From positions 2,626,649 to 2,690,648 of the forward strand of contig OZ252091.1 of the NCBI GenBank assembly GCA_965248145.1: DNA of 64,000 bases, given 5' to 3'. How positions within the stretch are numbered: the first letter of the stretch is position 1; each line of letters starts with the position of its first letter. This DNA comes from Gammaproteobacteria bacterium (GTDB lineage Bacteria; Pseudomonadota; Gammaproteobacteria; Eutrophobiales; Eutrophobiaceae). Positions 204-20,643 of this stretch are shown one piece after another. The notes under the pieces were generated by a model, which worked only from the letters and a program-made list of their open reading frames with translations, was not told the DNA's origin and did no database searches. Both the position numbers and the translations under genes were made by a program.

Positions 204-2339
204 TCAGGCTGCACGCTCAACCTGCACCAGGCTGTCAAATACCCTGGGGGCGTGCCCCATGTCGGCAAAATCCGCGGACGATACGACGTTGGCGGTACCA
301 TTGTTCAATTGCCGCCAGTAGCCCAGGGATGACACCACCAGACCCGAATTGACGTCGTCAGTCACTTTGGCAACCACCACGAAGGCGCCCCGGTCATTAA
401 AAACGCGTACCTGGTCTCCTTCACTGATACCCCGTGCCTCGGCATCCGCTTCACTGATCATCACGAACTGGTCGCCCTGCCTCTTGATCTTGTTATCCAT
501 ATTTGCATAACAGGAATTCAGGAAAGCGTGACTCTTGGGAGCGATAATATTCAGAGGGTATTTCTCTGCCAGTTCCGGATTGGTCTCGGGCGCTTCTTTT
601 GACGGCACATAATCAGGCAGGCTGTCTAACGGTTCGCTATTGCCCGGTTGCATATCCTCGTACATCTGCCGGAACGGCGCGATGACAAAATTACCGTTGG
701 ACGCGGTTTCCGAGAAAAATTCACACTTGCCTGATGGCGTCGGGAAATTGCCCTCCTTATGCGGCGCCCGTACATCCGGCTCGCCGATCTTGATGCGTGC
801 ATAACCGTGATCGCGCAGGTAATCCACATTGATGCCCTCACAGGCCGGCGAATCCCAGTCAACAAAATGCTCCAGGCACTCGCTGTCAGACCACTTGAAG
901 CGGTCTTCCTCAAAGCCCATGCGCGCGGCCAGGCGGTTGAAAATATCGTTATTGGACAAAACCTCGCCGGGCGGTTCGGCACACTTGGTATTGTAGGTAA
1001 GATAGTTGTGCCCCCAGGACAGGATGATATCCTCCATTTCCGCCCCCATGGCGGCAGGCAGAACGATATCTGCGTAGGCCGCCGTATCGGAGATAAAGTG
1101 CTCAGCGGAGACCATGAACAAGTCTTCCCGTTCCAGGCCCTTGACGATCTTGTCTGCTTCAGGCGCCTGGGTGACCGGGTTGGAGTTCCAGCACATCATG
1201 GACATGATCGGCGGATCCAGGTCCATCTCGCCGGTAAGCGCCCGGCCGATCTGCAGGTTATTGATGACCCGCGTGCCTTTCGGAATAAGCTGAGGTTGCG
1301 ATATCACGTCCAGCTTGTAGGGATGTTCCCAGAACGTCATCTGGTAAATGCCGCCACCCACTTCGCGCCAGGCGCCGGTCAGGGACGGCAGACAACTGAT
1401 GGCGCGTATCGCCTGACCACCGCCCCAGTTTCTTTCCACGGCAACGCCAATGCGAATAGCGGCCGGGTTGTTGGCTGCATATTCACGCGCCAGGGTACGG
1501 ATATCATTGGCACTGATACCGGTGATCCCGGCAGCCCACTCGGGCGTACGCGTGCTGGCCCTATCTGCCAGTTCCTTAAAGCCGACGGTGTAGTTATCCA
1601 CGTAATCCTGATCAAGCAGGTTCTCTTCAATAATGGTATTGATCATCGCCATGGCCAGGGCGCCGTCAGTACCGGGACGTATTGTTATGTGCCAGTCGGC
1701 CTGTCTGGCGGTGCGTGAACGGTAGGGATCAATCACGATCAGTTTGGCCCCTCTGTCCTTGGCATCTTTAACAAAATGCCAGGCGTGCAGGTTGGTGCTG
1801 ACGCTGTTGCAACCCCATAGAATAATGTATTTGGAATGGGCAAAACTTTCCGGGTCAACGCCGCTGGTGGGGCCGTTGGTCAATACCCAGGCCGTTGCCG
1901 ATCCCTCGCCACAGAAAGTACGCTCACACACCGTAGCGCCCAGCTTGTTGAAAAAGGCGTCTCCGCCGTTCAAGCCATGTATCAGCCCCTGGTGCCCCAG
2001 GTAGCTGTAGGGAGCTATAGCCTGTGTACCATACTCATCGATGATGTCTTTCCAGCGACTGATCACTTCGTTGAGCGCCTCATCCCAGGAGATACGTTCG
2101 AATTGCTTGCTGCCCTTCGGGCCGGTCCGGCGCAAGGGGTGGAGAACGCGATCAGGATGGTAATGGCGTTTCTCATAATCATCGAGCTTTACACACAAAC
2201 CCCCGCGCGTCATGGGATGATCCGGGTTTCCGTGTACTCCGGTTAGTTTTCCGTCCTCAACCTCAAAAACCATGGAACAGGTATCGGGACAATCATGCGG
2301 GCAACCGCCATAATAAGTTTCTTTTAATTGTGCAGACAT
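204..2339 (-). CDS. Molybdopterin-dependent oxidoreductase of the DMSO-reductase / bis-MGD superfamily, with an N-terminal 4Fe-4S cysteine motif.
   Basis: Start placed at MSAQLKETYYGGCPHDCPDTC (a Cx3Cx3C...C Fe-S motif). The following MTRGGLCVK motif, the overall length (~710 aa) and the C-terminal molybdopterin-dinucleotide-binding-like region fit COG0243-type enzymes. Confidence 0.8.
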   Translation of the reverse strand: MSAQLKETYYGGCPHDCPDTCSMVFEVEDGKLTGVHGNPDHPMTRGGLCVKLDDYEKRHYHPDRVLHPLRRTGPKGSKQFERISWDEALNEVISRWKDIIDEYGTQAIAPYSYLGHQGLIHGLNGGDAFFNKLGATVCERTFCGEGSATAWVLTNGPTSGVDPESFAHSKYIILWGCNSVSTNLHAWHFVKDAKDRGAKLIVIDPYRSRTARQADWHITIRPGTDGALAMAMINTIIEENLLDQDYVDNYTVGFKELADRASTRTPEWAAGITGISANDIRTLAREYAANNPAAIRIGVAVERNWGGGQAIRAISCLPSLTGAWREVGGGIYQMTFWEHPYKLDVISQPQLIPKGTRVINNLQIGRALTGEMDLDPPIMSMMCWNSNPVTQAPEADKIVKGLEREDLFMVSAEHFISDTAAYADIVLPAAMGAEMEDIILSWGHNYLTYNTKCAEPPGEVLSNNDIFNRLAARMGFEEDRFKWSDSECLEHFVDWDSPACEGINVDYLRDHGYARIKIGEPDVRAPHKEGNFPTPSGKCEFFSETASNGNFVIAPFRQMYEDMQPGNSEPLDSLPDYVPSKEAPETNPELAEKYPLNIIAPKSHAFLNSCYANMDNKIKRQGDQFVMISEADAEARGISEGDQVRVFNDRGAFVVVAKVTDDVNSGLVVSSLGYWRQLNNGTANVVSSADFADMGHAPRVFDSLVQVERAA

Positions 2340-2506
2340 GGCACTACGCCTCCCCTCGGGACAGTAAGTATTAACACCAAGAGTATAGTACAAGAATTGA
2401 AAAATAAAGGTCAAAAATGCATCAATCGGCAAAATTTTATGGTCTTGCAGGTCGAGCCTCGTAATATATTTGATTTTACCGGGGTTTTGTGAGTACTCTA
2501 ACCTGC

Positions 2507-3076
2507 ATGAAACGAATTATTGTCGGTATGTCCGGCGCCAGCGGCCTGCCCTACGGTATTCGCCTGGTGGAAGTACTGGCCGAGTTGCCGGACATTGAAA
2601 CCCACTTGGTCATGACCAACGCGGCCAAGCTTAATATCGGTATTGAAACGGAACACAGCGTTACCGACATCGAAGCAAAAGCCGACGTGGTCCATAACGT
2701 AAAAGACGTTGCGGCCAACATCTCCAGCGGTTCTTTCAGGACCGAAGGCATGATTGTCGCCCCCTGCTCCATGCGGACACTGTCGGCGATTACTCACTCT
2801 TATGCCGAGAACCTGCTGGTACGGGCTGCCGACGTGGTCCTCAAAGAGCGCCGGCGCCTGGTGATCATGCCCCGCGAGACCCCGTTACACACGGGGCACT
2901 GTAAATTATTCTACGAAGCCTCGCTCCTGGGAGCGATCATGGCGCCGCCTACTCCGGCGTTTTATAATCGCCCCCAAAGCATCGATGATATAGTCAACAC
3001 CAGTATCGGACGGGTACTGGACCTGTTTGATATCGAAACCGGCATCGTAAAGCGCTGGTCAGGCATGAATAACTAG
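2507..3076 (+). CDS. ubiX: Flavin prenyltransferase UbiX / Pad1 family (prFMN synthase).
   Basis: The MKRIIVGMSGASGLPYGIRLVEVL N-terminus is the hallmark flavoprotein fold of UbiX. Length is about 190 aa. It is the partner of the nearby UbiD-family decarboxylase. Confidence 0.85.
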   Translation: MKRIIVGMSGASGLPYGIRLVEVLAELPDIETHLVMTNAAKLNIGIETEHSVTDIEAKADVVHNVKDVAANISSGSFRTEGMIVAPCSMRTLSAITHSYAENLLVRAADVVLKERRRLVIMPRETPLHTGHCKLFYEASLLGAIMAPPTPAFYNRPQSIDDIVNTSIGRVLDLFDIETGIVKRWSGMNN

Positions 3077-3080
3077 ATAT

Positions 3081-3160
3081 TTGGGGTCAGAGTAAAAATA
3101 CGGCTGATTTGGTAGAGGACGCGGGCTTATTGTTGAGTATTTTTACTCTGACCCCAAATA
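3081..3160. repeat. Palindromic hairpin element (type B): TTGGGGTCAGAGTAAAAATA ... TATTTTTACTCTGACCCCAAA.
   Basis: An ~20-bp perfect inverted repeat separated by about 40 bp. A second copy lies at 18896-18978. It sits immediately after the ubiX stop, between convergent genes, so it could act as a bidirectional terminator. Confidence 0.7.
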
Positions 3161-3176
3161 TGAAATCGTCAGTTAA

Positions 3177-3300
3177 GCCACAGAGGACACAGAGATCACA
3201 GAGTAAATCGAGAATCATTTTGAATCATGGGTAACCTTTATGTTTATCGATTTATCTTATCCATTATTCATTTTGTTTTTATCTCTGTGTCCTCTGTGGC
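3177..3300. mobile_element. MITE-like intergenic repeat (type A), full copy.
   Basis: Termini are GCCACAGAGGACACAGAGATCACAGAGT ... TCTCTGTGTCCTCTGTGGC. The same ~125-135 bp element with inverted ends recurs at 4789-4920, 9467-9649 and 40192-40323. Confidence 0.75.
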
Positions 3301-3320
3301 AAGAAAAAAAGCAGGGTTAA

Positions 3321-4754
3321 TCAGGCAAACAGGTTGCCGGGGTCCAGCGCCTGTTTGAGCCTTGTGCGTAATTCGCTCATTCCGGCGTTATCATAGCTTG
3401 CCAATGCCCTGTCCAGGTGGCCGGTGCTGATGTGGCTCACCCCGAATCCCCTGTCCGTCATCGTATCTATCAGCGCGTCAAGACAGGCGATAGCCCTGTC
3501 CTGGGCCGCGTCCTGATACGTGAGGTAAACCCGTTGAATAATGGAGCGCCAACCAACCGCATATTCCGTCAGGTAATCAAATCCTCTTTTTTGCAGCGTG
3601 TCGGTGACCAGTTTATTCATCTTCAATACCTGCCGGCCGTCAACAGGCGCGACAAAACCGGCGTACAAGTGTGAATGACCGGACCAGTTCCCCGGGTTAT
3701 TGAACTCGGTCGATGGTTGCCCGCGCATCATCCTCTCCCGGTTGGAAAACACCGGGTTTGTGGCCTGCGTCTTTAAATCGATGACCCTGGCTCCGCCAAT
3801 GCCGGCAAAAGCGCCCTGCACCATGGGCCATAACACATCGACGTTGGGGGGAGTGTTATACAGCGCGCCGTACAGGGTCCAAAGTCCCAGGCCATAATCC
3901 GTCTTCAGCCTTTCCATATCAACAGTATTACCGTCGGCATAATCCTGCCGGGACCTGAAAGGACTCACGTCGAGAAGCGGATTACTGATAACAACGGTGT
4001 TCGGTATGATCACGTTGACTTTAAATGATCGCAATATCTCAACGGCCTGTGCCATGTCACTGACAGCTTCCAGGGTGACTGCGAAAGGTTGATAAGCAGG
4101 CGGCGCCGGCATCAACCAGACCCCCATTTTGGTCACCACCCCGAGGTTGGATTGCGTAAACAAGCCATCCAGGTAGGGGCCGTAGGCATATTTCGCCAAT
4201 TGCCAGGTATTGCTGTTCGGCATGGCGCCCATACCCAGCCTGACCAACCCGCCGTCTGCCAGCATGACTTCCATCCCACACTGCATCATCGTATGATCGC
4301 CATACGCGGTATAACCAAACTCCCGGGCAGTGATACTGCCGGCAACGGAATTCAATCCATTCCTGTCACAGTCCACCCACAGACCGGTCTTGTTTTCCTC
4401 CAGGTACTCGTTCAGTTGCGCATAACTCACGCCCGGTTCCACCAGGGCATAAGCGCCTTTGGTGTTTACCTCCACGATGTTATTCATCCGGGATTGGTCC
4501 ACAACCAGGACATCCTTATCCGTTGAGGCATTGACCACACCCCCGTTAGCGGCAAGATTGGGCAGTATCCAGAGTGAAACACCTCTTTTGGCAGCGGCCG
4601 ACAATACTGTCCTCAACTGTTCAACGTCTTTGGGAAGAACCGCGCCGACAGGCGTTTTGCCGAAGCTCCCGTAACGCTCGCTGACAACCGAGCCTGACAA
4701 CACGGCGGTTTTACCCAGTTTACGCCTCAGTTCAGTGACTATCCGGTTTGCCAT
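3321..4754 (-). CDS. VAO/PCMH-family FAD-linked oxidase (vanillyl-alcohol oxidase / 4-cresol dehydrogenase flavoprotein-like), with no signal peptide.
   Basis: A 477-aa paralogue of the ORF at 7051-8691, showing the same block order (…GAYALVEPGVSY…, …MPAPPAYQPF…) typical of PCMH-type FAD-binding domains. Confidence 0.75.
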   Translation of the reverse strand: MANRIVTELRRKLGKTAVLSGSVVSERYGSFGKTPVGAVLPKDVEQLRTVLSAAAKRGVSLWILPNLAANGGVVNASTDKDVLVVDQSRMNNIVEVNTKGAYALVEPGVSYAQLNEYLEENKTGLWVDCDRNGLNSVAGSITAREFGYTAYGDHTMMQCGMEVMLADGGLVRLGMGAMPNSNTWQLAKYAYGPYLDGLFTQSNLGVVTKMGVWLMPAPPAYQPFAVTLEAVSDMAQAVEILRSFKVNVIIPNTVVISNPLLDVSPFRSRQDYADGNTVDMERLKTDYGLGLWTLYGALYNTPPNVDVLWPMVQGAFAGIGGARVIDLKTQATNPVFSNRERMMRGQPSTEFNNPGNWSGHSHLYAGFVAPVDGRQVLKMNKLVTDTLQKRGFDYLTEYAVGWRSIIQRVYLTYQDAAQDRAIACLDALIDTMTDRGFGVSHISTGHLDRALASYDNAGMSELRTRLKQALDPGNLFA

Positions 4755-4788
4755 CTACACTCATCCTGTCAGGAAACGGAATTTGTTT

Positions 4789-4920
4789 GCCACAGAGGAC
4801 ACAGAGATCACAGAGTGAATCGAGATTCTTTTTGATACTTGGGCAACCAGAATGGTTAGCAATTTATCTTGATCATCATTCATATTATTTTTTCTCTGTG
4901 TCCTCTGTGTCCTCTGTGGC
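4789..4920. mobile_element. MITE-like intergenic repeat (type A), full copy.
   Basis: Same terminal sequences as 3177-3300, with the 3' end duplicated (TGTCCTCTGTGTCCTCTGTGGC). Confidence 0.75.
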
Positions 4921-4935
4921 GTAAATGTTTAATTT

Positions 4936-5178
4936 TTAATGCACTTCGTCCGTTTTCGCGGGAGGAATATTGTGTTTGTATTCTTCAGGGTGATCCGGGT
5001 CTGCCCGGAACCAGGCTTCCCGTTTCGCATAGTCCGTGGATTCATCGGGCTCGCTGTCGCGCCAGGTAAACGAACAACGCCGGCAGTGAAAAACGGTCCA
5101 GACGATTTCATCCCCTTCCCTGCCCTGGTATTCGACGCGCAGGTGTTCTTCGGCTGAGCGGCAGCGGGGGCAACTCAT
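4936..5178 (-). CDS. Small zinc-ribbon subunit D of a VdcBCD/BsdBCD-type phenolic acid decarboxylase.
   Basis: 80 aa, with the CPRC...WTVFHCRRCSFTWRDSEP pattern characteristic of VdcD/BsdD/EcdD-like subunits. It overlaps the upstream UbiD-family gene by 4 nt. Confidence 0.65.
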   Translation of the reverse strand: MSCPRCRSAEEHLRVEYQGREGDEIVWTVFHCRRCSFTWRDSEPDESTDYAKREAWFRADPDHPEEYKHNIPPAKTDEVH

Positions 5179-6659
5179 TGGCTTTCCGCCTCTTTTTGCA
5201 GTTGTTGGATATATTTTGCCAGGTCATCAATTTCGACGCCCCTGGGTGGCGATACAATCTTCGCGTCACCGCCGATGGGGTCGGGAGGCATGAAACTGGT
5301 GGCGTCAATGATTAAACGATGGCCCTTGCCCGGAATTTCCGCGGCCGGGTCAATGATTACCAGAGGCATATTCGGTATGACGATAATATCGTTGGCGCGA
5401 GTGCGGGTGGACAAGGCCCACATCACCTGGTTGAGGTCAAAGGGATCGACGTCATCATCCACCAGGATAAGATTTTTCAGGTACATCAGGCCATGGGGCG
5501 TTCCCAGGGCGCGCATGGCCACTGACTTGGCAAAACCGGCAAACCGATTCTTCACTGAAATAATCCCGGTCAGGCCATGCTGGTACAAGGCATTCACCGC
5601 GACAACCTCAGGGAAGTTTTCCTTTAACTGGGAATAGATGGGCGCACTAGTGCTCAGCCCGATCAGCGTATCGTGTTCGGTCCAACCTTTGCCGATATAA
5701 ATATTTTCAAAGATCGGGTCGGTACGGTGGGAAACGGCGGTGACCTGGAATAAGGGGACATGCCGGATACCGCTGTAACTGCCCGGAAATTCTCCGAACG
5801 GCCCCTCCAGGCAACGCCGGTTATTCAGCAACTGCGCTTCTATTACCATCTCCGCGCCGGCGAGAATGTCCAGACCGTTGCCGGAGCGGGTCAATTCAAT
5901 GGGACTGCCCATCATCTGCGAGGCATAGGCAAATTCCGATTCATCGTAATTGACGGGCGTGGCGGCAAACATGGCCATGGCCGGGTGGTTGCCGAGCATC
6001 ACGGCGATTTTCAGCGGGACATCATCCTCTTCCGCCATGCGGATCTGTTGCGCCATATCGTGGGACGGGACGGACAACAAGGTGAACTTATCCGGACCTT
6101 GTACCTGGATGCGATAAATTCCCACGTTCTGTTTGGAAAAATTATCCGGGTCACGGGGATCGCGACTGACGATATTGGCCTTGGCAATATAAAAACCACC
6201 GTCCAGGGCATTGATACGATACAGGGGCAGCAGGTCATACAGGTTGACATCGGTCTTGATCCTGTTCTCATTCACCGGTGCGTCTTCCGGTTTCACCCTG
6301 TCTATCAACGGCCGGTCGGAACCCCAGCGACCCGTCAGTTCGTAGAATAATTCCCTGATAGTGGTCCCTTTCTGCCGACCCAGCAGCAAGGCAATATTGG
6401 AAAAACTGCCATGCACCCCTACCACGAGCCGTTTCCCCGGATAGCCGCGGATCTTGTCGAACAGGATGGCCGGCCCGGTCATCGCGTCGCGACCCGCCGC
6501 AACAACAACCTTACGGATATCGGGTTCAGGCATCACGACATCCGGCCAGGTAATACACTGTCCGTGCTCGGCCAGTAATTCGAGATAATCCCTCAAACAG
6601 CGGACCCGTTCGGCTACGGCCCGGGCCTCGGTCGATAAGCTGGAGGTTTCCATATCCAT
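5175..6659 (-). CDS. UbiD-family prFMN-dependent (de)carboxylase (VdcC/BsdC-like hydroxyarylic acid decarboxylase).
   Basis: 494 aa, with UbiD-family conserved blocks. Its start overlaps the stop of the preceding cytochrome c gene, and it is followed by a D-subunit gene with ubiX nearby. Confidence 0.85.
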   Translation of the reverse strand: MDMETSSLSTEARAVAERVRCLRDYLELLAEHGQCITWPDVVMPEPDIRKVVVAAGRDAMTGPAILFDKIRGYPGKRLVVGVHGSFSNIALLLGRQKGTTIRELFYELTGRWGSDRPLIDRVKPEDAPVNENRIKTDVNLYDLLPLYRINALDGGFYIAKANIVSRDPRDPDNFSKQNVGIYRIQVQGPDKFTLLSVPSHDMAQQIRMAEEDDVPLKIAVMLGNHPAMAMFAATPVNYDESEFAYASQMMGSPIELTRSGNGLDILAGAEMVIEAQLLNNRRCLEGPFGEFPGSYSGIRHVPLFQVTAVSHRTDPIFENIYIGKGWTEHDTLIGLSTSAPIYSQLKENFPEVVAVNALYQHGLTGIISVKNRFAGFAKSVAMRALGTPHGLMYLKNLILVDDDVDPFDLNQVMWALSTRTRANDIIVIPNMPLVIIDPAAEIPGKGHRLIIDATSFMPPDPIGGDAKIVSPPRGVEIDDLAKYIQQLQKEAESQ

Positions 6660-7045
6660 CAGTTTACTTCATCCGTAATATAGCTTGCCAGCGCGTCCAA
6701 CTGGCGGTCGGTAATTTCGGTGGGGCGAAACGGCGGCATCAGCTTGAAACCCTCTCTCACTACGGTCTTGATATAGTCGGGCGGTAATTCATCCCGGTTG
6801 AGCAGGACCGCTTGCTGCTCACCCAGTCTTTCCTGTAAGCGCATGGTCCCCGGATGACCCGGCCCCGCGCCATGACAGGCTATGCAATATAACTCAAATA
6901 ACGCTTTTCCGTCATGCGTGCCTGCCATTGCACCGGTCGGTTCAGTTACCTGCCCGGCTTTGCCTGCCCCGGCAGACTGGTCGTCTCCACAGCCCGCCAG
7001 CAAAAACAGGGCTGACAGGAGAACGACACCTCGATAATTCGTCAT
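6659..7045 (-). CDS. Mono-haem cytochrome c lipoprotein, PchC-like subunit of a p-cresol methylhydroxylase-type flavocytochrome.
   Basis: Lipobox LLAGCG and a single CIACH haem motif. It lies immediately downstream of the Tat-exported PCMH-like flavoprotein. Confidence 0.7.
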   Translation of the reverse strand: MTNYRGVVLLSALFLLAGCGDDQSAGAGKAGQVTEPTGAMAGTHDGKALFELYCIACHGAGPGHPGTMRLQERLGEQQAVLLNRDELPPDYIKTVVREGFKLMPPFRPTEITDRQLDALASYITDEVN

Positions 7046-7050
7046 AGCCG

Positions 7051-8691
7051 CTAACCCGGCCAGATACCACTTTTGCCCGGAGATAAAATACCGTCCGGGT
7101 CCAGTGCCTGTTTCAGTCTATGGTGTAATTTCCACAGCGCCCCGTCATTCCAGTTGTAGGTGCCGGCGATCTCGTCCATAAAATCAAGGTGGGTGCGATA
7201 CTCGCCATAACCCTGTTCGGCAAAATCGTTGACAAGGTGGCCAAAACACTCGTGGGCGCGCCGCCGTTCGTCATCATTCAGGCGGTCAAACACGAGTTGG
7301 AAGATATTCAGCAGCTCCCGCCACCCCACCAGAAACTCACCGATATAATCGAAACCATATTCGTTGGCGCGGTCCCTTATCAGCGTGAATTGTTTCATGG
7401 AGTCTTCGCCGGTTACCGGTGAACGCGGCGAGAAATCAATGTGCGCCCCACTGCCTACCCAGTTCATTAAACTGAATTCGGTCATATTCGGCACGCCTTT
7501 CATGAGTTTCACCCGGTAGCGCCAGGCCGGGTCGTTGGGTCGGTCTCCCTCAAAGAAAAACCGGGCGCCGGGTATGCTGCGAAAAGCCTCTTCCAATACT
7601 TTCCAGTTGTTATCCATGATCGGTTCGGGCCCATACAGGGCGCCGTAAAAATTCCACATGCCGATGTCCAGGTCATCCGCCATCTTCCGGCGATGGCGCA
7701 TGGGCATGGGACCTTTACCGCCGTAATACTGCTTTCTTGTCGCTCTCGGGGCCGCTTCCCAGATCAGGCCTACCGTCGTCGCGGCATTGGGTATCAGCAT
7801 ATTAAGCCGCAAGGGACCGACAACTTCCGTGATCTGGTAGAGATCTTCCTCCCGCGGGAAAGTCACCAGGTACGGCCGGTAACCCGGCGGCTCCGGCATC
7901 AACCAGATGCCCACTTTCGTAATAACGCCGAAATTTGACTGGGTAAACATGCCCTCGACCCAGGGACCGCAACCATACTTGTACAGGCCGGACGTAGCGG
8001 AGTTCGATAAAGCGCCCATACCGGTATCGACGACGGTGCCGTCGGCAAGCACCACCTGCATTCCGCAATTCATCAACAGGTGATCGCCATAGGGAGTATA
8101 TCCGGCGCCATGCTCCGACAGGTTGCCCAGTACACTGCCCCAACCCGGCGCCGCGGGATCTATCCATAATTTGCTGCCGCGTTTTTGTAAATAGTTATAC
8201 AACTCAAAATAGCTGACGCCTGGCTCAACCACCGCATAACCGTGGTCTTCATTGACTTCGATGATACGCTTCATACGGTTCAAATCGAGGACAAAATAAC
8301 CGGGTTTTATCGGCGCCGGACCGCCATAGGCAAAGTTCTTGCCGGTGGAAATAGTCCACAGGGGAATCCGGTAACTGCGGGCAATTCTCAGGATTGCCTG
8401 GATTTCTTCAACGGTCCCGGGGGCTACCGCGGCAGCCGGCATGTGCGCCTCGTCCGGCAGCGTGGCATATACGTCCCGATAAGTCCTTACTTCCTGATCA
8501 TCGGTAAATACCCACTTGTCACCAACGGCCTGACGCAGTTCAGCGACGGCATGGTTAAACTGACCGGGAGTCAATGTATCCGGCAGCGGTCGCTCCGGTG
8601 AACTGTCAGGTAATACCTGGCCGGCATGGCTGATGAGGGGCGCGCCCGCCGCCGCAGCTGATGATTTCAGAAATGTTCTTCTTGTTACCAT
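7051..8691 (-). CDS. Tat-exported PCMH/VAO-family flavoprotein (4-cresol dehydrogenase / eugenol hydroxylase flavoprotein-subunit-like).
   Basis: Twin-arginine signal MVTRRTFLKSSAAAAGAPL and an FAD-binding PCMH-type domain. Length (546 aa) and the downstream cytochrome c partner fit PchF or EhyB-type enzymes. Confidence 0.8.
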   Translation of the reverse strand: MVTRRTFLKSSAAAAGAPLISHAGQVLPDSSPERPLPDTLTPGQFNHAVAELRQAVGDKWVFTDDQEVRTYRDVYATLPDEAHMPAAAVAPGTVEEIQAILRIARSYRIPLWTISTGKNFAYGGPAPIKPGYFVLDLNRMKRIIEVNEDHGYAVVEPGVSYFELYNYLQKRGSKLWIDPAAPGWGSVLGNLSEHGAGYTPYGDHLLMNCGMQVVLADGTVVDTGMGALSNSATSGLYKYGCGPWVEGMFTQSNFGVITKVGIWLMPEPPGYRPYLVTFPREEDLYQITEVVGPLRLNMLIPNAATTVGLIWEAAPRATRKQYYGGKGPMPMRHRRKMADDLDIGMWNFYGALYGPEPIMDNNWKVLEEAFRSIPGARFFFEGDRPNDPAWRYRVKLMKGVPNMTEFSLMNWVGSGAHIDFSPRSPVTGEDSMKQFTLIRDRANEYGFDYIGEFLVGWRELLNIFQLVFDRLNDDERRRAHECFGHLVNDFAEQGYGEYRTHLDFMDEIAGTYNWNDGALWKLHHRLKQALDPDGILSPGKSGIWPG

Positions 8692-8702
8692 GACTCAGGA
8701 TT

Positions 8703-9446
8703 CTAGCCCTGGTTGAGTTTCAGATGTGATCCGTCACACCAGGGTTTGGTTTTTGAATACTTGCAACCACACAGCGCCACATGCTGGAATTCCTCCAGTT
8801 TAAATTCCAACGGTACACGCTTTGTTTCCTTATGGGAACCATCACAAAACGGTTGATTGCGGGAGCGACCACAGGCGCACCAGTAATAATCGCCCTTCTC
8901 CAGGTTCATCAAATAAGGGGAATTACGGCTGCCATCCGGGAATTTAGCCTTCACCCAGCCTTCTTTGTATGGACTGACCATATTCAATTTTAATTCCATG
9001 GATTGAAAATACCAGCGTCCGTCCTGTTTTACACATTGGCAGTCATAAGTACCGCCTATCCAGTGGGATTCCGCCTCGTCCGTGTGCGGGTTGGGCACGG
9101 TCGCCGATTCCCACAGGTACCAGAATAGCGTTGCCGTGCTGCCATCCGGAGCAATATCGATAAGTGGGGAGATCATGTAATGCAGCGACCACCAGATCTT
9201 CTCGCCGGCAATCCCATGCAGTCCTTTTGCCAGTTTATCCCGGCCATAATATTTTCCAAACCCCTTGCATTCCCAGGTGGCATCCTCGGCAAAACAGGGA
9301 CCGATAACTTCAGGGTCGTTGCCGCGATCGCAGCCCCTGGCATAGGTAACAATCAGGCGCTGTATCGCATCTACGTCTTCGAGGCGACTCAACTTGGCGT
9401 CCAGTTTTTCCAGCAGTCCCTTTATTTCCTTGAGTTCATTATTCAT
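8703..9446 (-). CDS. Fusion protein: an N-terminal NTF2/SnoaL-like domain (ring-hydroxylating-dioxygenase beta-subunit-like) joined to two C-terminal CDGSH iron-sulfur domains.
   Basis: The N-terminal ~150 aa resemble SnoaL_4 / RHO beta subunits (IQRLIVTYARGCDRGND...). The C-terminus carries two CDGSH motifs (C-x-C-x9-CDGSH twice: CACGRSRNQPFCDGSH and CGCKYSKTKPWCDGSH). Confidence 0.7.
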   Translation of the reverse strand: MNNELKEIKGLLEKLDAKLSRLEDVDAIQRLIVTYARGCDRGNDPEVIGPCFAEDATWECKGFGKYYGRDKLAKGLHGIAGEKIWWSLHYMISPLIDIAPDGSTATLFWYLWESATVPNPHTDEAESHWIGGTYDCQCVKQDGRWYFQSMELKLNMVSPYKEGWVKAKFPDGSRNSPYLMNLEKGDYYWCACGRSRNQPFCDGSHKETKRVPLEFKLEEFQHVALCGCKYSKTKPWCDGSHLKLNQG

Positions 9447-9466
9447 ATCGTTACCTTTATAAATCA

Positions 9467-9649
9467 GCCACAGAGGACACAGAGATCACAGAATCAGGGA
9501 AGAAGCAGGTTGGGATGGCCTTTTTAAGACCGTCGCCAGCCAGGGATGGCTGGCGATGAGCGTACAGGGACGTATTCACAGCGTGTCTTAAAAAGGCCAT
9601 GCCAACCTGCTGGAGTTATTATATTGAATGACTCTGTGTCCTCTGTGGC
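9467..9649. mobile_element. MITE-like repeat (type A ends) with a different internal core containing nested palindromes.
   Basis: It has the same GCCACAGAGGACACAGAGATCACAGA / CTCTGTGTCCTCTGTGGC termini. The interior carries the inverted repeats AGGTTGGGATGGCCTTTTTAAGAC / GTCTTAAAAAGGCCATGCCAACCT and CGCCAGCC-AGGG-ATGGCTGGCG. Confidence 0.7.
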
Positions 9650-9660
9650 TGTTCACTTTG

Positions 9661-10905
9661 TCAGGCCACTCGTTTCGATTTTTGTTTACGCCCTTGAAGC
9701 TCTGCCGCATAGGCCTTGTAACGGGTTATCAACCAGCGGTTGAATTGCGGCAACGTTGCCTCTTTCGGCGCATAACGCCCACGGGGCGCAAAACGCGAGC
9801 GCAGTCCCCTGTGAACGTTGGTATTTGCACCGGTATCCTGATCATTCAGCGTTTCCAGGCCCATGACAACGGCTTTGAATATGATATCGAAATTATCCAT
9901 CCGCAGGGTTGAGTTGGGATAGACAAACCCAACCCGGATGGTCATGGCGTTGGCGCCCTGGGGCAGGATGCAATAATAAAAACAACCGTCCGGAACACAG
10001 CCGAAAAACAGGTTGGGCAGGGCACAGGCGAACATCACCCGCTTGCGTTCTTTTTCAGTCAGACCCTCAATCACCGGGAACAGGCAACTGAAGGCGGAGG
10101 TAAAATTACCGTCCAGTTCCAGGAATCCGGTAGGGTGAAATATGGCGCCGTCATCGAAATCGTCCCATTCGGCAAATGTGGCCAACTTGGAAGGGGCAAA
10201 ATCGTGAGGGCCTTTATGCAGGTACCAGGTGTGATGGGGCTCAATAGCATTCTCGTGCATAAACTTCCAGTTCCATGGACTGGGACCCCAATCCACAGTA
10301 GGAACGGCTCCCATCTCCGCAAGTTTATGATTTTCAATTTCTTTTCCCAGGCGTTTCAAGCGAGGCGCAAGCGGTTTTGCCCTGCCGTCCATGTTAACGA
10401 AGATGAAGCCATTCCATACTTCCGTACGTAATACGGGCAGACAGTATTTCTCCTGCAATTCCTTCAGGCCGGCGTGGGCGTCCATCTCCGGGGCGCTGAT
10501 CAGATTACCCGTTTCATCATAGGACCAGCCATGGAAGGGGCAGGTAAAAACCCGGGTATTTCCTTTTTCCCCACCCAGTATGTGACCGCGATGCCGGCAA
10601 ACCGCGGACATGACGCGCACGCCGCCATCGTCTTTTCGCTGCACCAGCAGCGGGTCTTCATTGATCGTGATGGACACGTAATCACCCGGGTTTGGTATCG
10701 TACCCTGGTGGCCCACGCAGACCCATTCCCGGTCCCAGACTGCTCGCTTCTCAAATTCAAACCAGTCCTCGGAGGTATAGACAGCTGGAGGCATTGAGAT
10801 ACATTCCTCCAATTCAGCATTGGACTCGTCGAGTTGTTCCAGGATTTCAAGGTGACGTTCCGTCAGTGTGACATCAGGTAACGCGTGTGTGACAAAATCA
10901 ATCAT
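9661..10905 (-). CDS. Rieske [2Fe-2S] non-haem iron oxygenase, alpha (catalytic) subunit.
   Basis: Rieske motif CRHRGHILGG...CPFHGW. The catalytic-domain motif NWKFMHENAIEPHHTWYLH (H-x4-H) fits mononuclear-iron ligands. Length is 414 aa. Confidence 0.85.
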   Translation of the reverse strand: MIDFVTHALPDVTLTERHLEILEQLDESNAELEECISMPPAVYTSEDWFEFEKRAVWDREWVCVGHQGTIPNPGDYVSITINEDPLLVQRKDDGGVRVMSAVCRHRGHILGGEKGNTRVFTCPFHGWSYDETGNLISAPEMDAHAGLKELQEKYCLPVLRTEVWNGFIFVNMDGRAKPLAPRLKRLGKEIENHKLAEMGAVPTVDWGPSPWNWKFMHENAIEPHHTWYLHKGPHDFAPSKLATFAEWDDFDDGAIFHPTGFLELDGNFTSAFSCLFPVIEGLTEKERKRVMFACALPNLFFGCVPDGCFYYCILPQGANAMTIRVGFVYPNSTLRMDNFDIIFKAVVMGLETLNDQDTGANTNVHRGLRSRFAPRGRYAPKEATLPQFNRWLITRYKAYAAELQGRKQKSKRVA

Positions 10906-12426: not shown

Positions 12427-12456
12427 TTGACATTCCTGATTTTTACTCACTAATAA
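12427..12456 (+). promoter_or_regulatory. Sigma70-like promoter (TTGACA - 17 nt - TAATAA) directly upstream of, and overlapping, the ATG that precedes the heptanucleotide repeat.
   Basis: Read directly: TTGACAttcctgatttttactcacTAATAATG. It marks the sharp boundary between AT-normal DNA and the GC-rich island. Confidence 0.35.
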
Positions 12457-13883
12457 TGTTCGACCGAGAGCCGAGAGCCGAGAGCCGAGAGCCGAGAGCC
12501 GAGAGCCGAGAGCCGAGAGCCGAGAGCCGAGAGCCGAGAGCCGAGAGCCGAGAGCCGAGAGCCGAGAGCCGAGAGCCGAGAGCCGAGAGCCGAGAGCCGA
12601 GAGCCGAGAGCCGAGAGCCGAGAGCCGAGAGCCGAGAGCCGAGAGCCGAGAGCCGAGAGCCGAGAGCCGAGAGCCGAGAGCCGAGAGCCGAGAGCCGAGA
12701 GCCGAGAGCCGAGAGCCGAGAGCCGAGAGCCGAGAGCCGAGAGCCGAGAGCCGAGAGCCGAGAGCCGAGTTGTGTCCGCAATTCGCCGGGGCGCGCCATG
12801 CCCCGGCTGGACGCAGCGTCACGAAGCGCGCCGCCTGAGCCTTCCCGGGCCGCGCGCTTCTTCCGCCCTGCCGATTGTTTCCTCCGCGTCGGGGCGGGGC
12901 TTGCGCGGGCGGGACGCCGTGGCCTCCCGGCGGGGCTGCTTGCAATCGTGTTGCTGGTCTTTCCGGTCGCTGCCGGAGCCGGGGCCGGCAATGCCACCGG
13001 CAGGCCGAGTTTTTCGGGGCAACCGATCCAAACCGGGGTGATTACCGCCATCACCAGCGGGATCGGGGATCCCGACGGGGTGGACACCGGCACTTTCGCA
13101 TACGAATGGCTTCGCTGTGACTCGACCGGCAACAACTGCAATACCACTGCCGGGACGGCCTCGACCTATACGCTGACCAATGCCGATATCGGCTTCAGGT
13201 TCAGGCTGCGGGTGAACTTCGAGGACAGCGATGGCAATGCCGAGTCGCGCACCAGCTTTCCATGGCCATCACGCTCCGGGAATGCGATCTACGCGTACCC
13301 GGCCTGCGCCGAGTCGGACTTGACGAGTCTCGACAGTATGAACCGAACGGCAATCTGGACCGGGACGCTGACGGTGGGGTTCTTCAAACAAGACAACACT
13401 TCCTTCTATGGGCGGGGACGGAGAGCTGGAACTTGGTACGGTCAACTCACCGATTCAGTGTTCTCTATCGATTCGAAAAACTACAGATTGCGCCTCCTCA
13501 ATTCGGAAGACGGCGGGACGGGGGACGGTGACCTTAACGTCGTATTCTACACCGCAACAAATGAAGCCTTGGGAAGCGCACACTACGCCGCACACCGCGC
13601 CGCTCTTGAGGAATATGCTCAAGTGCACATCTGCGACAAGGCGTTTGTCATAAGCGAAGCATCAAATTCGAACAGAAGTACGTATGTTTTTCTCGCTGCT
13701 TTTGAGCCCTTTCTGAGCGGGAGCACCCGGACGATACGCGTGAGCGTGCCGAATTCACTCTTGAACGCCGCACCGGAATCGATGGACAACAGCGTGGCGA
13801 CCAACGAGGACGAGGCCTACACCTTCCAGGTAAGCGACTTCCACTTCACCGACCCCGACATGGGGGCGCGCTCGCGAGCGTGA
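12456..13883 (+). CDS. 5' part of a giant GC-rich surface adhesin-like gene: heptamer repeat, signal/TM-like segment, cadherin/VCBS-like repeat. It is interrupted by a frameshift at about 13862-13866.
   Basis: Hydrophobic LLAIVLLVFPVAAGAGAG segment. Repeat module GVITAITSGIGDPDGVDTGTFAYEWLRCDSTG...YTLTNADIGFRFRLRVNFEDSDGNAES. The C-terminal domain (...YTFQVSDFHFTDPD) continues in the next ORF in another frame. Confidence 0.6.
   Translation: MFDREPRAESREPRAESREPRAESREPRAESREPRAESREPRAESREPRAESREPRAESREPRAESREPRAESREPRAESREPRAESREPRAESREPRAESREPSCVRNSPGRAMPRLDAASRSAPPEPSRAARFFRPADCFLRVGAGLARAGRRGLPAGLLAIVLLVFPVAAGAGAGNATGRPSFSGQPIQTGVITAITSGIGDPDGVDTGTFAYEWLRCDSTGNNCNTTAGTASTYTLTNADIGFRFRLRVNFEDSDGNAESRTSFPWPSRSGNAIYAYPACAESDLTSLDSMNRTAIWTGTLTVGFFKQDNTSFYGRGRRAGTWYGQLTDSVFSIDSKNYRLRLLNSEDGGTGDGDLNVVFYTATNEALGSAHYAAHRAALEEYAQVHICDKAFVISEASNSNRSTYVFLAAFEPFLSGSTRTIRVSVPNSLLNAAPESMDNSVATNEDEAYTFQVSDFHFTDPDMGARSRA
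12464..12769. repeat. Heptanucleotide simple sequence repeat, (CCGAGAG)n equivalent to (GAGAGCC)n, about 43 perfect copies.
   Basis: Perfect 7-bp periodicity over ~305 bp starting 6 nt after ATG 12456. Translated it gives (REPRAES)n in all three frames. Unit length is not a multiple of 3, so copy number sets the reading frame. Confidence 0.95.
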
Positions 13884-20588: not shown

Positions 20589-20643
20589 ATGAGACTGTCT
20601 TGAGTTGCATTGCGATTGATTTTGTTATCTGTGATGTCGTTAT

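What the first reader, a model, noticed from the sequence alone, without database searches (positions are those of the whole stretch)
2489..10905. Composite phenolic/aromatic catabolic cluster: VdcBCD-type decarboxylase, PCMH-like flavocytochrome, a second VAO-type oxidase and a Rieske oxygenase
Within 8.4 kb the window carries ubiX, a UbiD-family enzyme and an 80-aa VdcD/BsdD-like zinc-ribbon subunit. This three-gene signature marks reversible hydroxyarylic-acid decarboxylases acting on 4-hydroxybenzoate or vanillate. Alongside them are a Tat-exported PchF-like flavoprotein whose stop overlaps a PchC-like cytochrome c lipoprotein (p-cresol/eugenol hydroxylase type), a cytoplasmic VAO-type paralogue, and a Rieske oxygenase. 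The PchC gene overlaps the UbiD start (ATGA at 6659), and the UbiD gene overlaps vdcD by 4 nt, which implies translational coupling of the flavocytochrome with the decarboxylase. That pairing is unusual. The gene content suggests conversion of an alkyl- or methoxy-phenol (lignin monomer, cresol or eugenol type) through the acid to a phenol, or the reverse carboxylation. The small D subunit is easily missed by gene callers.
Basis: partly seen in the sequence, partly recalled or inferred. Interest (0 to 1): 0.65.

Follow-up and report, generated by a model that had tools for sequence, protein, structure and literature searches.

The report
Conserved phenol side-chain removal operon
The reported genes are real and belong to a widely conserved but experimentally uncharacterised gene cluster that probably oxidises the para side-group of a phenol outside the cell membrane, then removes it as CO2 inside the cell to leave a simpler phenol.

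Summary
All seven reported genes are present at the stated coordinates. The UbiD homologue is a VdcC, not a ubiquinone UbiD, and the 80-aa ORF is a four-cysteine VdcD. The "PchF-like" flavoprotein is not a true PCMH. It lacks the FAD-linking Tyr384, keeps the VAO/VAD-type histidine, and pairs it with PCMH's Ala-Pro flavin contacts. Its closest solved relative is vanillyl-alcohol dehydrogenase (54% identity).

The pairing called "unusual" is the normal context for this clade. Flavoprotein, cytochrome c, VdcC, VdcD and a second flavoprotein recur together in 44 of 58 genome loci and 34 of 44 metagenome loci. The hosts include sponge/coral-symbiont MAGs, Cycloclasticus and sphingomonads. Free-living versions embed an aldehyde dehydrogenase. 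The window's lineage instead carries a Rieske oxygenase and an NTF2-CDGSH fusion protein.

The sphingomonad version is phenanthrene-induced in Novosphingobium HR1a, but I found no biochemical study of it.

Best reading: 4-hydroxybenzyl compound → aldehyde → 4-hydroxybenzoate or vanillate → phenol or guaiacol. The second flavoprotein lacks the phenol-binding residues and may be an accessory subunit.

Two junction details in the finding were wrong. This is a new variant of known kinds, of moderate interest.

The parts
9661..10905 (-). Rieske non-heme iron oxygenase alpha subunit (414 aa); first gene of the cluster
   Evidence: Pfam Rieske plus Ring_hydroxyl_A. Motifs C103-x-H105...C122-x2-H125 and E222-x2-H225-x4-H230. 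Only the N-terminal half resembles solved dioxygenase alpha subunits and CntA. Orthologues at 51-67% identity always precede an NTF2-CDGSH gene. A promoter-like site lies at 10977-10948.
8703..9446 (-). NTF2-like (SnoaL_4) domain fused to two CDGSH [2Fe-2S] motifs (247 aa).
   Evidence: Pfam SnoaL_4 plus zf-CDGSH x2. CDGSH motifs at residues 190-205 and 226-241. AF2 mean pLDDT 90.5. Best fold and sequence hits are LdpA diarylpropane lyase. LdpA's His-Asp dyad and Tyr oxyanion hole are kept as H89, D40, Y35 and Y134, all invariant in the family. Its Motif II is absent.
7051..8691 (-). Tat-exported 4-phenol-oxidising flavoprotein dehydrogenase (546 aa) of the VAO/PCMH family, related to the VAD clade
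   Evidence: FAD_binding_4, FAD-oxidase_C and TAT_signal. PDB scores: VAD 8S7P 662 bits, PCMH 465 bits. Identity is 54% to VAD and 39% to PchF. Signature residues: Y122, A181-P182, E405, M409 (in place of Tyr384), H417, Y498-R499.
6659..7045 (-). Monoheme c-type cytochrome lipoprotein (128 aa); predicted electron acceptor of the flavoprotein
   Evidence: Cytochrome_CBB3. Lipobox LAGC19 and CIACH 54-58. The best solved match is PchC, 1dii_C, E 4e-5. It is adjacent to the flavoprotein gene in 56 of 58 genome loci.
5175..6659 (-). VdcC, the prFMN-dependent UbiD-family decarboxylase subunit (494 aa)
   Evidence: NF041204 VdcC 658.4 bits against a cut-off of 650. ShVdcC 7AE4 E 1.8e-135, against E. 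coli UbiD 1e-43. R183, E285 and E290 form the ERE triad motifs. Its start overlaps the cytochrome stop by 1 nt.
4936..5178 (-). VdcD zinc-ribbon activator subunit (80 aa)
   Evidence: NF041205 59 bits against a cut-off of 30. PF26358 in the public annotation. CxxC pairs C3/C6 and C32/C35 match the Zn site of ShVdcD. ATGA overlap with VdcC.
3321..4754 (-). Divergent VAO/PCMH-family paralogue (VAOp, 477 aa) with no signal peptide and no phenolate-binding triad. Candidate accessory (alpha-prime) subunit or an enzyme of different specificity.
   Evidence: FAD_binding_4 only. 35% identical to the neighbouring flavoprotein. The Tyr/Tyr/Arg triad, the N5 pair and the covalent-FAD sites are replaced and vary among 55 orthologues, while the core is conserved. 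Present in 47 of 58 loci, including loci without VdcCD.
2507..3076 (+). UbiX flavin prenyltransferase, which makes prFMN for VdcC. Convergent with VAOp. The longest ORF starts at GTG 2489.
   Evidence: NF004685 257.6 bits against 188. The VdcB-specific model scores 238.8, below its 290 cut-off. The 189-aa gene call is from the public annotation. UbiX lies in the cluster in most other lineages.
204..2339 (-). Cytoplasmic molybdopterin (DMSO-reductase family) oxidoreductase (711 aa). A neighbour whose membership of the pathway is doubtful.
   Evidence: Pfam Molybdopterin, Molydop_binding and Fe4S4. Best solved matches are acetylene hydratase (192 bits) and FdhF. It sits beside UbiX only in the symbiont clade and is absent from all other versions.

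Best explanation
The region is one conserved catabolic module that removes the para carbon substituent from a phenol. The steps below are marked as shown or inferred.

(1) Inferred from homology and signature residues. The Tat-exported flavoprotein (7051-8691) oxidises a 4-hydroxybenzylic substrate through a p-quinone methide. Candidate substrates are 4-hydroxybenzyl or vanillyl alcohol, and possibly p-cresol or creosol-type methylphenols. The product is the aldehyde. Electrons pass to the adjacent lipoprotein cytochrome c and on to the respiratory chain.

(2) Inferred. The aldehyde is oxidised to the 4-hydroxybenzoate or vanillate. In free-living relatives an aldehyde dehydrogenase encoded inside the operon does this. 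The window encodes none, so this step is done either by an enzyme encoded elsewhere in the genome or by the Rieske/NTF2-CDGSH pair.

(3) Inferred from strong family membership. Cytoplasmic VdcCD, loaded with prFMN made by UbiX, decarboxylates the acid non-oxidatively to phenol or guaiacol plus CO2.

(4) Speculative. The two-gene Rieske oxygenase (alpha subunit plus NTF2-CDGSH protein) hydroxylates or O-demethylates the phenol to a catechol for ring cleavage.

The second flavoprotein, VAOp, is most likely an accessory partner of the flavocytochrome rather than a second phenol oxidase.

Shown directly: gene identities, signature residues, tight gene spacing, and conservation of the gene set across many taxa.
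Not shown: substrates, direction of flux, protein complexes.
For: - Family assignments and catalytic motifs.
- The products of the characterised relative VAD are vanillin and 4-hydroxybenzaldehyde (PMC7617285). One oxidation step turns these into the substrates of characterised VdcCD enzymes, vanillate and 4-hydroxybenzoate (PMC8379154).
- Synteny, genome set: of 58 loci, 56 have the cytochrome, 44 have VdcCD and 47 have VAOp.
- Synteny, metagenome set: of 44 loci with VdcC at 65% identity or more, 34 have the flavoprotein directly upstream and 3 have it elsewhere in the locus.
- 61 of 94 flavoprotein+VdcC loci carry an aldehyde dehydrogenase inside the cluster.
- All 51 VdcC-linked flavoproteins share the Ala-Pro/His signature. 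The 8 Asp-Pro ones are never VdcC-linked.
- In Novosphingobium sp. HR1a the same operon (orf1984-1991) is induced log2 4.4-5.9 by phenanthrene, together with a catechol meta-cleavage pathway (PMC8360164).
- In a Binataceae locus an HpaB-type phenol hydroxylase and an extradiol dioxygenase sit next to VdcCD.
- In another context the Rieske/NTF2-CDGSH pair sits next to an intradiol dioxygenase.
- Gene spacing in the window runs from 11 nt down to a 4-nt overlap between 8703 and 4936.
Against: - No aldehyde dehydrogenase and no ring-cleavage dioxygenase are found anywhere in the 64-kb window. In this organism the pathway is therefore incomplete as encoded locally.
- The usual aerobic fate of 4-hydroxybenzoate or vanillate is hydroxylation or demethylation to protocatechuate, so decarboxylation to a more toxic phenol is not obviously advantageous.
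- The oxidation and decarboxylation steps lie in different compartments.
- The nearest characterised flavoprotein is only 54% identical and differs at a flavin-contact residue (Asp150 in VAD, Ala181 here). Substrate range cannot simply be transferred.
- No experiment on any member of this operon was found.
Confidence: 0.55

Rival explanations
1. This is a classical p-cresol or 4-alkylphenol methylhydroxylase pathway. The flavocytochrome hydroxylates a para-methyl or para-alkyl group, as PCMH or eugenol hydroxylase does. The second flavoprotein is a second, cytoplasmic oxidase acting on the alcohol, and VdcBCD acts afterwards. This differs from the best explanation only in the entry substrate and in the role of the paralogue.
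For: The flavin N5 pair Ala181-Pro182 is identical to PCMH's Ala154-Pro155, and the phenolate triad and Glu380 equivalent are conserved. The cytochrome's best solved match is PchC. Annotators of Novosphingobium HR1a assigned these genes to 'p-cresol to catechol'.
Against: The defining Tyr384-FAD link is absent (Met409), and a VAO/VAD-type His417 is present. The closest characterised enzyme, VAD, is inactive on p-cresol. The paralogue lacks every residue that binds the phenolate, and these sites are not even conserved among its own orthologues. A second phenol oxidase is therefore unlikely.
Confidence: 0.2
2. Two independent detoxification modules happen to be neighbours. One is a VdcBCD phenolic-acid stress decarboxylase, as in Bacillus BsdBCD. 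The other is a separate periplasmic phenol dehydrogenase. They share no pathway.
For: VdcBCD/BsdBCD systems in Firmicutes and enterobacteria work as stand-alone detoxification units (own knowledge; background in PMC8379154). 7 of 44 close VdcC loci have no flavoprotein nearby. The window lacks the connecting aldehyde dehydrogenase.
Against: The gene order is conserved in more than 90 loci across distant taxa and in at least three rearranged architectures. An aldehyde dehydrogenase is inserted exactly between the modules in 61 loci. Start and stop codons overlap or nearly abut in the window. The whole block is co-induced in HR1a.
Confidence: 0.12
3. The module works on polycyclic or other non-lignin hydroxyaryl acids, for example hydroxynaphthoates or 4-hydroxyisophthalate from PAH or xylenol degradation. 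Alternatively it runs in the carboxylating direction (phenol to 4-hydroxybenzoate).
For: Many hosts are PAH degraders, including Cycloclasticus, Sphingobium chungbukense DJ77 and Novosphingobium spp.. The operon sits in a PAH transposon and is phenanthrene-induced. UbiD enzymes are reversible.
Against: VdcC is 70% identical to a Paenibacillus protein named VdcC by NCBI and passes the VdcC-specific model. Carboxylation is thermodynamically unfavourable without high CO2 and would leave the flavocytochrome and the aldehyde dehydrogenase without a role. The sponge-symbiont hosts are not known PAH degraders.
Confidence: 0.08

Closest known systems
VdcBCD / BsdBCD / ShdBCD non-oxidative hydroxyarylic acid decarboxylases (Streptomyces sp. 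D7, Bacillus subtilis, Sedimentibacter hydroxybenzoicus; PDB 7AE4)
   Same: The C subunit passes the VdcC-specific HMM and carries the ERE motifs. The D subunit is a four-cysteine zinc ribbon. The C and D genes overlap. A UbiX gene lies nearby.
   Different: The B gene is not in a B-C-D order. It lies 1.9 kb away on the other strand and scores below the VdcB-specific cut-off. The C-D pair is embedded in, and its start overlaps, a flavocytochrome operon.
p-Cresol methylhydroxylase PchCF of Pseudomonas putida (PDB 1DII)
   Same: A flavoprotein plus a small c-type cytochrome are encoded side by side. The Ala-Pro pair at flavin N5, the Tyr/Tyr/Arg phenolate triad and the Glu380 equivalent are kept. 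The cytochrome's best solved match is PchC.
   Different: Identity is 39%. Tyr384 for the 8-alpha-O-tyrosyl FAD link is missing, and a VAO-type His is present instead. Here the flavoprotein has its own Tat signal, whereas PchF, PcmI and BpfA have none.
Vanillyl-alcohol dehydrogenase (VAD) of Marinicaulis flavus (PDB 8S7N-8S7W; Guerriere et al. 2025)
   Same: It is the best solved match (662 bits, 54% identity). The His-FAD site and the N5 proline are shared. A cytochrome c gene is adjacent, and a UbiD-family gene is listed six genes away in the paper's Table S2.
   Different: VAD has Asp150 at flavin N5, whereas this protein and all 51 VdcC-linked relatives have Ala. VAD's physiological role and partner were not established.
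orf1979-1991 of the PAH-catabolic transposon of Novosphingobium sp. HR1a, and the same block in Sphingobium chungbukense DJ77 (L061)
   Same: The same set is present: UbiX, flavoprotein, VdcC, VdcD, second flavoprotein and cytochrome c. In HR1a it is transcriptionally induced as a block.
   Different: The sphingomonad version has two aldehyde dehydrogenases, TonB receptors and an AndAc-like Rieske gene. It has no NTF2-CDGSH gene, its flavoprotein has no Tat signal, and its cytochrome gene comes last. It is annotated only, not characterised.
LdpA diarylpropane lyase of sphingomonads (PDB 8ABT-8ABW), compared with the NTF2 domain of the 8703-9446 product
   Same: It is the best fold and sequence match. 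The His-Asp dyad and the two oxyanion-hole tyrosines are conserved.
   Different: LdpA's Glu143/Tyr165/Gln170 motif is absent. Here the domain carries two CDGSH iron-sulfur motifs and is always paired with a Rieske alpha subunit.
Geobacter metallireducens PCMH with two flavoprotein isoforms (PcmI/PcmJ), reported as alpha-alpha'-beta2 (own knowledge; PcmI/PcmJ named)
   Same: Two paralogous VAO/PCMH flavoprotein genes accompany one cytochrome c.
   Different: Here the paralogue is only 35% identical and has lost the active-site residues. No membrane-anchor (PcmCDEF-type) genes are present.

Membership tests
VdcBCD-type hydroxyarylic acid decarboxylase | The UbiD-family C subunit scores above the VdcC-specific model and well below the true-UbiD model | tested here: met
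   NF041204 658.4 bits against a cut-off of 650. NF008175 (UbiD) 157 bits against 788. 7AE4 E 1.8e-135 against 2IDB E 1e-43.
VdcBCD-type hydroxyarylic acid decarboxylase | Catalytic Glu-Arg-Glu triad of UbiD enzymes | tested here: met
   NVGIYR183 and E285-GPFG-E290. The role of the triad is described in PMC8379154. Assignment rests on motifs, not on a structure.
VdcBCD-type hydroxyarylic acid decarboxylase | Small D subunit: a zinc ribbon with two CxxC knuckles, encoded directly after C | tested here: met
   NF041205 59 bits against a cut-off of 30. C3, C6, C32 and C35 correspond to ShVdcD C3, C6, C28 and C31. 4-nt ATGA overlap.
VdcBCD-type hydroxyarylic acid decarboxylase | Dedicated B subunit (VdcB-type UbiX) in the operon | tested here: inconclusive
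   The UbiX family model is met (257.6 bits against 188), but the VdcB-specific model is not (238.8 against 290). The gene is nearby but on the opposite strand.
VdcBCD-type hydroxyarylic acid decarboxylase | Decarboxylation of 4-hydroxybenzoate or vanillate | not testable with these tools
   Requires an enzyme assay.
PCMH (PchCF) flavocytochrome | FAD linked 8-alpha-O to Tyr384 | tested here: not met
   The aligned residue is Met409. None of 83 homologues has Tyr at this position. The reference sequence was verified as 1dii_A.
PCMH (PchCF) flavocytochrome | Ala-Pro pair at flavin N5 and the Tyr95/Tyr473/Arg474 phenolate site | tested here: met
   A181-P182, Y122, Y498 and R499.
PCMH (PchCF) flavocytochrome | Adjacent exported c-type cytochrome subunit | tested here: met
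   The gene starts 5 nt downstream. It has a CIACH heme motif and a lipobox, and its best PDB hit is PchC at E 4e-5.
VAD clade of 4-phenol dehydrogenases (Guerriere et al. 2025) | His for 8-alpha-N3-histidyl FAD plus Pro at N5 | tested here: met
   H417 and P182. Both are invariant in 83 homologues.
VAD clade of 4-phenol dehydrogenases (Guerriere et al. 2025) | Flavin-interacting Asp (Asp150) | tested here: not met
   Ala181 here. Ala occurs in 75 of 83 homologues and in all 51 VdcC-linked ones.
Rieske non-heme iron oxygenase (alpha-beta type) | Rieske CxH...CxxH motif and 2-His iron site in the alpha subunit | tested here: met
   C103, H105, C122 and H125, plus E222-x2-H225-x4-H230. Pfam Rieske plus Ring_hydroxyl_A. 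The carboxylate iron ligand was not identified.
Rieske non-heme iron oxygenase (alpha-beta type) | Canonical beta subunit (Ring_hydroxyl_B) and a separate ferredoxin/reductase | tested here: not met
   The partner is a SnoaL_4-CDGSH fusion. No canonical beta subunits appear among the top 50 fold hits. No reductase or ferredoxin gene is in the cluster.
LdpA diarylpropane lyase | His-Asp dyad plus Tyr oxyanion hole (Motif I) | tested here: met
   H89, D40, Y35 and Y134 align to His97, Asp40, Tyr35 and Tyr147. They are invariant in 37 family members.
LdpA diarylpropane lyase | Glu143-Tyr165-Gln170 triad (Motif II), which is exclusive to LdpA | tested here: not met
   The aligned residues are Ile130 and Leu152.

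The most novel reading that the evidence does not exclude
The window's lineage runs a variant of the pathway with two undescribed protein devices.

(a) A two-gene Rieske oxygenase. Its beta-like partner is an LdpA-related, catalytically equipped NTF2 domain fused to two CDGSH [2Fe-2S] centres. This would serve as a built-in electron carrier and possibly a second active site. It would take the place of the aldehyde dehydrogenase found in all other versions of the operon.

(b) A degenerate flavoprotein paralogue that serves as a non-catalytic alpha-prime subunit. It would be carried to the periplasm by piggy-backing on the Tat signal of its catalytic partner.
Probability: 0.2. Interest if true: 0.7.

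Novelty: new variant of a known kind. Interest (0 to 1): 0.5.

Why it matters
The VAD clade of 4-phenol dehydrogenases was described in 2025 with no known physiological role. Its conserved linkage to VdcCD and an aldehyde dehydrogenase suggests one. It also points to an aerobic route that funnels para-substituted phenols (lignin- or phenylpropanoid-derived, cresol-type) into phenol and catechol rather than protocatechuate. That would suit organisms whose aromatic funnel is catechol meta-cleavage, such as Cycloclasticus and PAH-degrading sphingomonads. The route is directly testable in cultivated strains that carry the operon.

For biocatalysis, the operon supplies natural partner cytochromes for VAD-type enzymes and a large set of proteobacterial VdcCD enzymes from (at least facultatively) aerobic hosts.

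The presence of the cluster in sponge and coral symbionts hints at turnover of phenolic metabolites in those holobionts.

The Rieske/NTF2-CDGSH pair may be a new electron-transfer architecture for Rieske oxygenases.

Tried and rejected
- True UbiD of ubiquinone synthesis: rejected by HMM and PDB scores.
- PCMH membership: rejected because Tyr384 is absent.
- Literature: I looked for a published characterisation of the flavocytochrome+VdcCD operon and found none. The only mentions are annotation-level: the HR1a transcriptome and Table S2 of the VAD paper. One search for the PDB code '8S7P' returned only unrelated chemistry papers.
- Aldehyde dehydrogenase: tblastn found none anywhere in the window or in the symbiont-clade loci.
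- The conserved 191-aa hypothetical protein of the sphingomonad operon is not related to the NTF2-CDGSH protein.
- The operon's aldehyde dehydrogenase matches no specific NCBIfam equivalog, so it does not identify the substrate.
- The Mo enzyme at 204-2339 is not specifically related to pyrogallol transhydroxylase (109 bits, against 192 for acetylene hydratase). It accompanies the cluster only in the symbiont clade, so I do not count it as part of the pathway.
- The third FAD_binding_4 protein at 20644-22173 is unrelated to the 4-phenol subgroup.
- No Rfam family is present. Terminator scans were uninformative.
- I did not model VAOp, because only window or database-search sequences may be submitted and a single-sequence model would be poor.

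Full report
OBSERVATION.
- UbiX lies at 2489/2507-3076 (+).
- A 477-aa VAO-family protein without a signal peptide lies at 3321-4754 (-).
- An 80-aa VdcD lies at 4936-5178 (-).
- A 494-aa VdcC lies at 5175-6659 (-).
- A 128-aa cytochrome c lipoprotein lies at 6659-7045 (-).
- A 546-aa Tat-signal flavoprotein lies at 7051-8691 (-).
- A 414-aa Rieske alpha subunit lies at 9661-10905 (-).

Reading the junctions base by base corrects two claims. VdcC and VdcD do overlap by ATGA. The cytochrome stop and the VdcC start overlap by one base (TGATG), not four. The flavoprotein stop (TAG, 7051-7053) is separated from the cytochrome ATG (7045) by five bases and does not overlap it.

It encodes an NTF2-like SnoaL_4 domain fused to two CDGSH iron-sulfur motifs.

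The window is part of a 3.77-Mb metagenome-assembled contig (ERZ25766727). Its public gene calls already include the 80-aa VdcD and tag it PF26358, so it was not missed by gene callers.

THE DECARBOXYLASE.
- The UbiD homologue scores 658.4 bits on NCBI's VdcC model (cut-off 650). It scores only 157 on the ubiquinone UbiD model (cut-off 788).
- Its best solved relative is Sedimentibacter VdcC (7AE4, E 1.8e-135), against 1e-43 for E. coli UbiD.
- It is 70% identical to a Paenibacillus protein that NCBI names VdcC.
- It carries the Arg and Glu-x4-Glu motifs of the UbiD catalytic triad: R183, E285 and E290.
- The small ORF passes the VdcD model (59 bits against 30). It has the two CxxC knuckles that bind zinc in ShVdcD.
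- UbiX passes the family model but falls below the VdcB-specific cut-off (238.8 against 290). It sits on the opposite strand.

THE FLAVOCYTOCHROME. The best solved match of the flavoprotein is not PCMH. It is the vanillyl-alcohol dehydrogenase (VAD) of Marinicaulis flavus, PDB 8S7N-8S7W, at 662 bits and 54% identity. PCMH scores 465 bits and 39% identity.

I used the signature residues tabulated by Guerriere et al. (PMC7617285) and a PchF sequence verified as identical to 1dii_A. The window protein:
- keeps the phenolate triad (Y122, Y498, R499) and the Glu380 equivalent (E405);
- has Met in place of PCMH's FAD-linking Tyr384;
- has the VAO/VAD-type histidine (H417);
- has Ala181-Pro182 at flavin N5.

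The Ala-Pro pair is the PCMH pair, not VAD's Asp-Pro. This Ala-Pro/His combination is not among the seven enzymes in that paper's Table 1.

Among 83 homologues His and Pro are invariant. Ala occurs in 75 and Asp in 8. All 51 flavoproteins linked to VdcC have Ala, and the eight Asp-Pro proteins are never VdcC-linked.

[quoted passage not shown] Because the flavin contact differs, activity on p-cresol cannot be excluded for the window protein.

The cytochrome has a lipobox and one CxxCH motif. Its best solved match, though weak, is PchC.

A flavoprotein without a signal peptide next to a lipoprotein cytochrome is the norm for PchCF, PcmIG and BpfAB, and for most homologues found here. Only 12 of 82 homologues, including the window's clade, carry a twin-arginine motif.

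CONSERVATION. A flavoprotein-centred scan of one genome per species returned 80 loci. A VdcC-centred scan of metagenome contigs returned another 80. I mapped the window's proteins onto both sets by tblastn.
- Among 58 genome loci with at least 6 kb downstream of the flavoprotein gene, 56 have the cytochrome, 44 have VdcC+VdcD and 47 have the second flavoprotein (VAOp).
- Among 44 metagenome loci with VdcC at 65% identity or more and at least 4 kb upstream, 34 have the flavoprotein directly upstream, 3 have it elsewhere in the locus and 7 have none.

Hosts include:
- uncultured Gammaproteobacteria, including a MAG labelled APA_bin_93 and a Plut_ MAG. I read these labels as Aplysina aerophoba and Porites lutea from the names alone;
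- Cycloclasticus, Porticoccaceae, Rugosibacter and Panacagrimonas;
- Sphingopyxis, Sphingobium, Novosphingobium and Croceicoccus;
- Binataceae.

The pairing is therefore the rule for this clade, not an oddity.

In sphingomonads the order is UbiX, hypothetical, flavoprotein, aldehyde dehydrogenase, VdcC, VdcD, VAOp, cytochrome. In Cycloclasticus one or two aldehyde dehydrogenase genes follow VAOp.

The same block is orf1984-1991 of the PAH transposon of Novosphingobium sp. HR1a. There it is induced log2 4.4-5.9 by phenanthrene and was annotated as "p-cresol to catechol" without experiments (PMC8360164).

The supplementary Table S2 of the VAD paper lists a cytochrome c next to VAD and a UbiD-family gene six genes away, without comment. 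I found no paper that characterises the operon.

MECHANISM. The products of VAD-type oxidation are one aldehyde-dehydrogenase step away from the known substrates of VdcCD. 4-Hydroxybenzaldehyde gives 4-hydroxybenzoate, and vanillin gives vanillate. An aldehyde dehydrogenase is embedded in 61 of 94 flavoprotein+VdcC loci.

The most economical reading has three steps. A 4-hydroxybenzylic compound is oxidised in the periplasm, with electrons going to cytochrome c. The aldehyde is oxidised to the acid. VdcCD, loaded with prFMN by UbiX, then decarboxylates the acid in the cytoplasm to phenol or guaiacol.

Downstream hydroxylation and ring cleavage are suggested by context elsewhere:
- an HpaB-type hydroxylase and an extradiol dioxygenase beside VdcCD in a Binataceae locus;
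- the catechol meta-cleavage genes in the same HR1a transposon.

All of this is inference from homology and gene context. Substrates and direction of flux are untested.

In the window itself the scheme is incomplete. No aldehyde dehydrogenase and no ring-cleavage enzyme is encoded in the 64 kb.

THE SECOND FLAVOPROTEIN (VAOp). VAOp is 35% identical to its neighbour. It keeps the core of the FAD domain but has lost the P-loop motif STGKNFAYGG, the N5 pair and all three phenolate ligands. In the window protein the aligned His is retained, although among orthologues the covalent-FAD positions are not conserved either. These positions also differ among its 55 orthologues.

VAOp evolves faster than the other proteins. 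Median identity to the window protein is 41%, against 63% for the flavoprotein and 74% for VdcC.

VAOp follows the flavoprotein and cytochrome genes even in loci that lack VdcCD. A second phenol oxidase is therefore unlikely. An accessory alpha-prime subunit, by analogy with the two flavoprotein isoforms of Geobacter PCMH (own knowledge; PcmI/PcmJ named), is the reading I favour, with low confidence.

THE RIESKE PAIR. The NTF2-CDGSH protein belongs to a family of about 200 sequence clusters. In all four contexts examined it directly follows an orthologous Rieske alpha gene of about 410 aa (51-67% identity).

A confident AF2 model (mean pLDDT 90.5) and sequence search both put the NTF2 domain closest to LdpA, the sphingomonad diarylpropane lyase that works through a quinone methide. 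Next come scytalone-dehydratase-like proteins, LinA and BaiE. Canonical Rieske beta subunits are not among the top hits.

LdpA's His-Asp dyad and both oxyanion-hole tyrosines are conserved and invariant in the family (H89, D40, Y35, Y134). LdpA's specific Glu/Tyr/Gln motif is not conserved.

Across the 94 flavoprotein+VdcC loci, 61 carry the aldehyde dehydrogenase, 19 carry the Rieske/NTF2-CDGSH pair and none carries both (Fisher p = 2e-11). Only about three lineages carry the pair, so this statistic overstates independence.

The pair might replace the dehydrogenase step, or it might act on the phenol product. In one unrelated context it sits next to an intradiol dioxygenase. I cannot decide between these.

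VERDICT. The enzymology is more nuanced than "PCMH + VdcBCD". Each component belongs to a known family, the sphingomonad version is already annotated in the literature, and no step is chemically unprecedented. The operon as a pathway, the Ala-Pro/His flavoprotein subgroup, the degenerate paralogue and the Rieske/NTF2-CDGSH pair are all uncharacterised. I rate it a new variant of known kinds, with interest 0.5.

Noticed in passing
window 12464-12769: A perfect heptanucleotide tandem repeat, CCGAGAG x 43.7 copies at 100% identity. It lies at the 5' end of a 475-aa ORF with no Pfam match (12456-13883, +). The period is not a multiple of three, so a change in copy number would shift the reading frame. 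This is a candidate phase-variable locus, or an assembly oddity.
   Followed up: no
window 13880-17305 (+): A 1141-aa eukaryote-like surface protein with SRCR, fibronectin-III, cadherin-like and Calx-beta domains. Its start overlaps the stop of the repeat-bearing ORF. Its central part is 73.6% G+C, against about 52% for the window. Such proteins are typical of sponge and coral symbionts.
   Followed up: no
window 19944-26615: A second small catabolic-looking cluster: a TetR regulator (19944-20588), a third FAD_binding_4 flavoprotein (20644-22173), a SnoaL_2 protein (22118-22744), an aldo/keto reductase (22755-23897) and a TonB-dependent receptor (24324-26615). The flavoprotein is unrelated to the 4-phenol subgroup.
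   Followed up: partly
window 8703-9446; loci L162, L164, L166: The SnoaL_4-CDGSH fusion protein always follows, and often overlaps by 4 nt, a Rieske alpha gene in unrelated genomic contexts: Novosphingobium, Binataceae and an uncultured genome. This may be an undescribed Rieske oxygenase architecture with iron-sulfur centres on the beta-like subunit.
   Followed up: partly
L124, L131, L134, L164 (Binataceae-type loci): A different architecture of the same gene set. VdcC-VdcD is transcribed divergently from Rieske, NTF2-CDGSH, a second distant UbiD paralogue (27-28% identical to VdcC; BagN/phenylphosphate-carboxylase-like by NCBIfam), a hypothetical gene, the flavoprotein, the cytochrome and a second flavoprotein.
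   Followed up: partly
L015, L036, L040, L074, L120-L128: Some genomes carry a second flavoprotein-cytochrome pair (47-51% identical to the window protein) just downstream of VdcCD. It is preceded by a Rieske-domain gene.
   Followed up: no
window 204-2339 (-) and beyond the window start (L001): A cytoplasmic Mo-bisPGD oxidoreductase, closest to acetylene hydratase and FdhF. It is 92-95% conserved among the symbiont MAGs, more than its neighbours. It is followed by genes for an NMT1-type binding protein, an amidohydrolase and a sulfatase. Function unknown.
   Followed up: partly
window 26936-41543; 50240-50908; 57289-58830: A complete nuo (complex I) operon, which accounts for the strong AT skew at 28-33 kb. 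There is also an IS200-like Y1 transposase and a Mu-type transposase.
   Followed up: no
window 4894-4918: A short direct repeat, CTCTGTGTC x 2.8 (GACACAGAG on the coding strand), in the 181-nt spacer between vdcD and the second flavoprotein gene. A promoter-like site lies next to it at 4913-4884.
   Followed up: no
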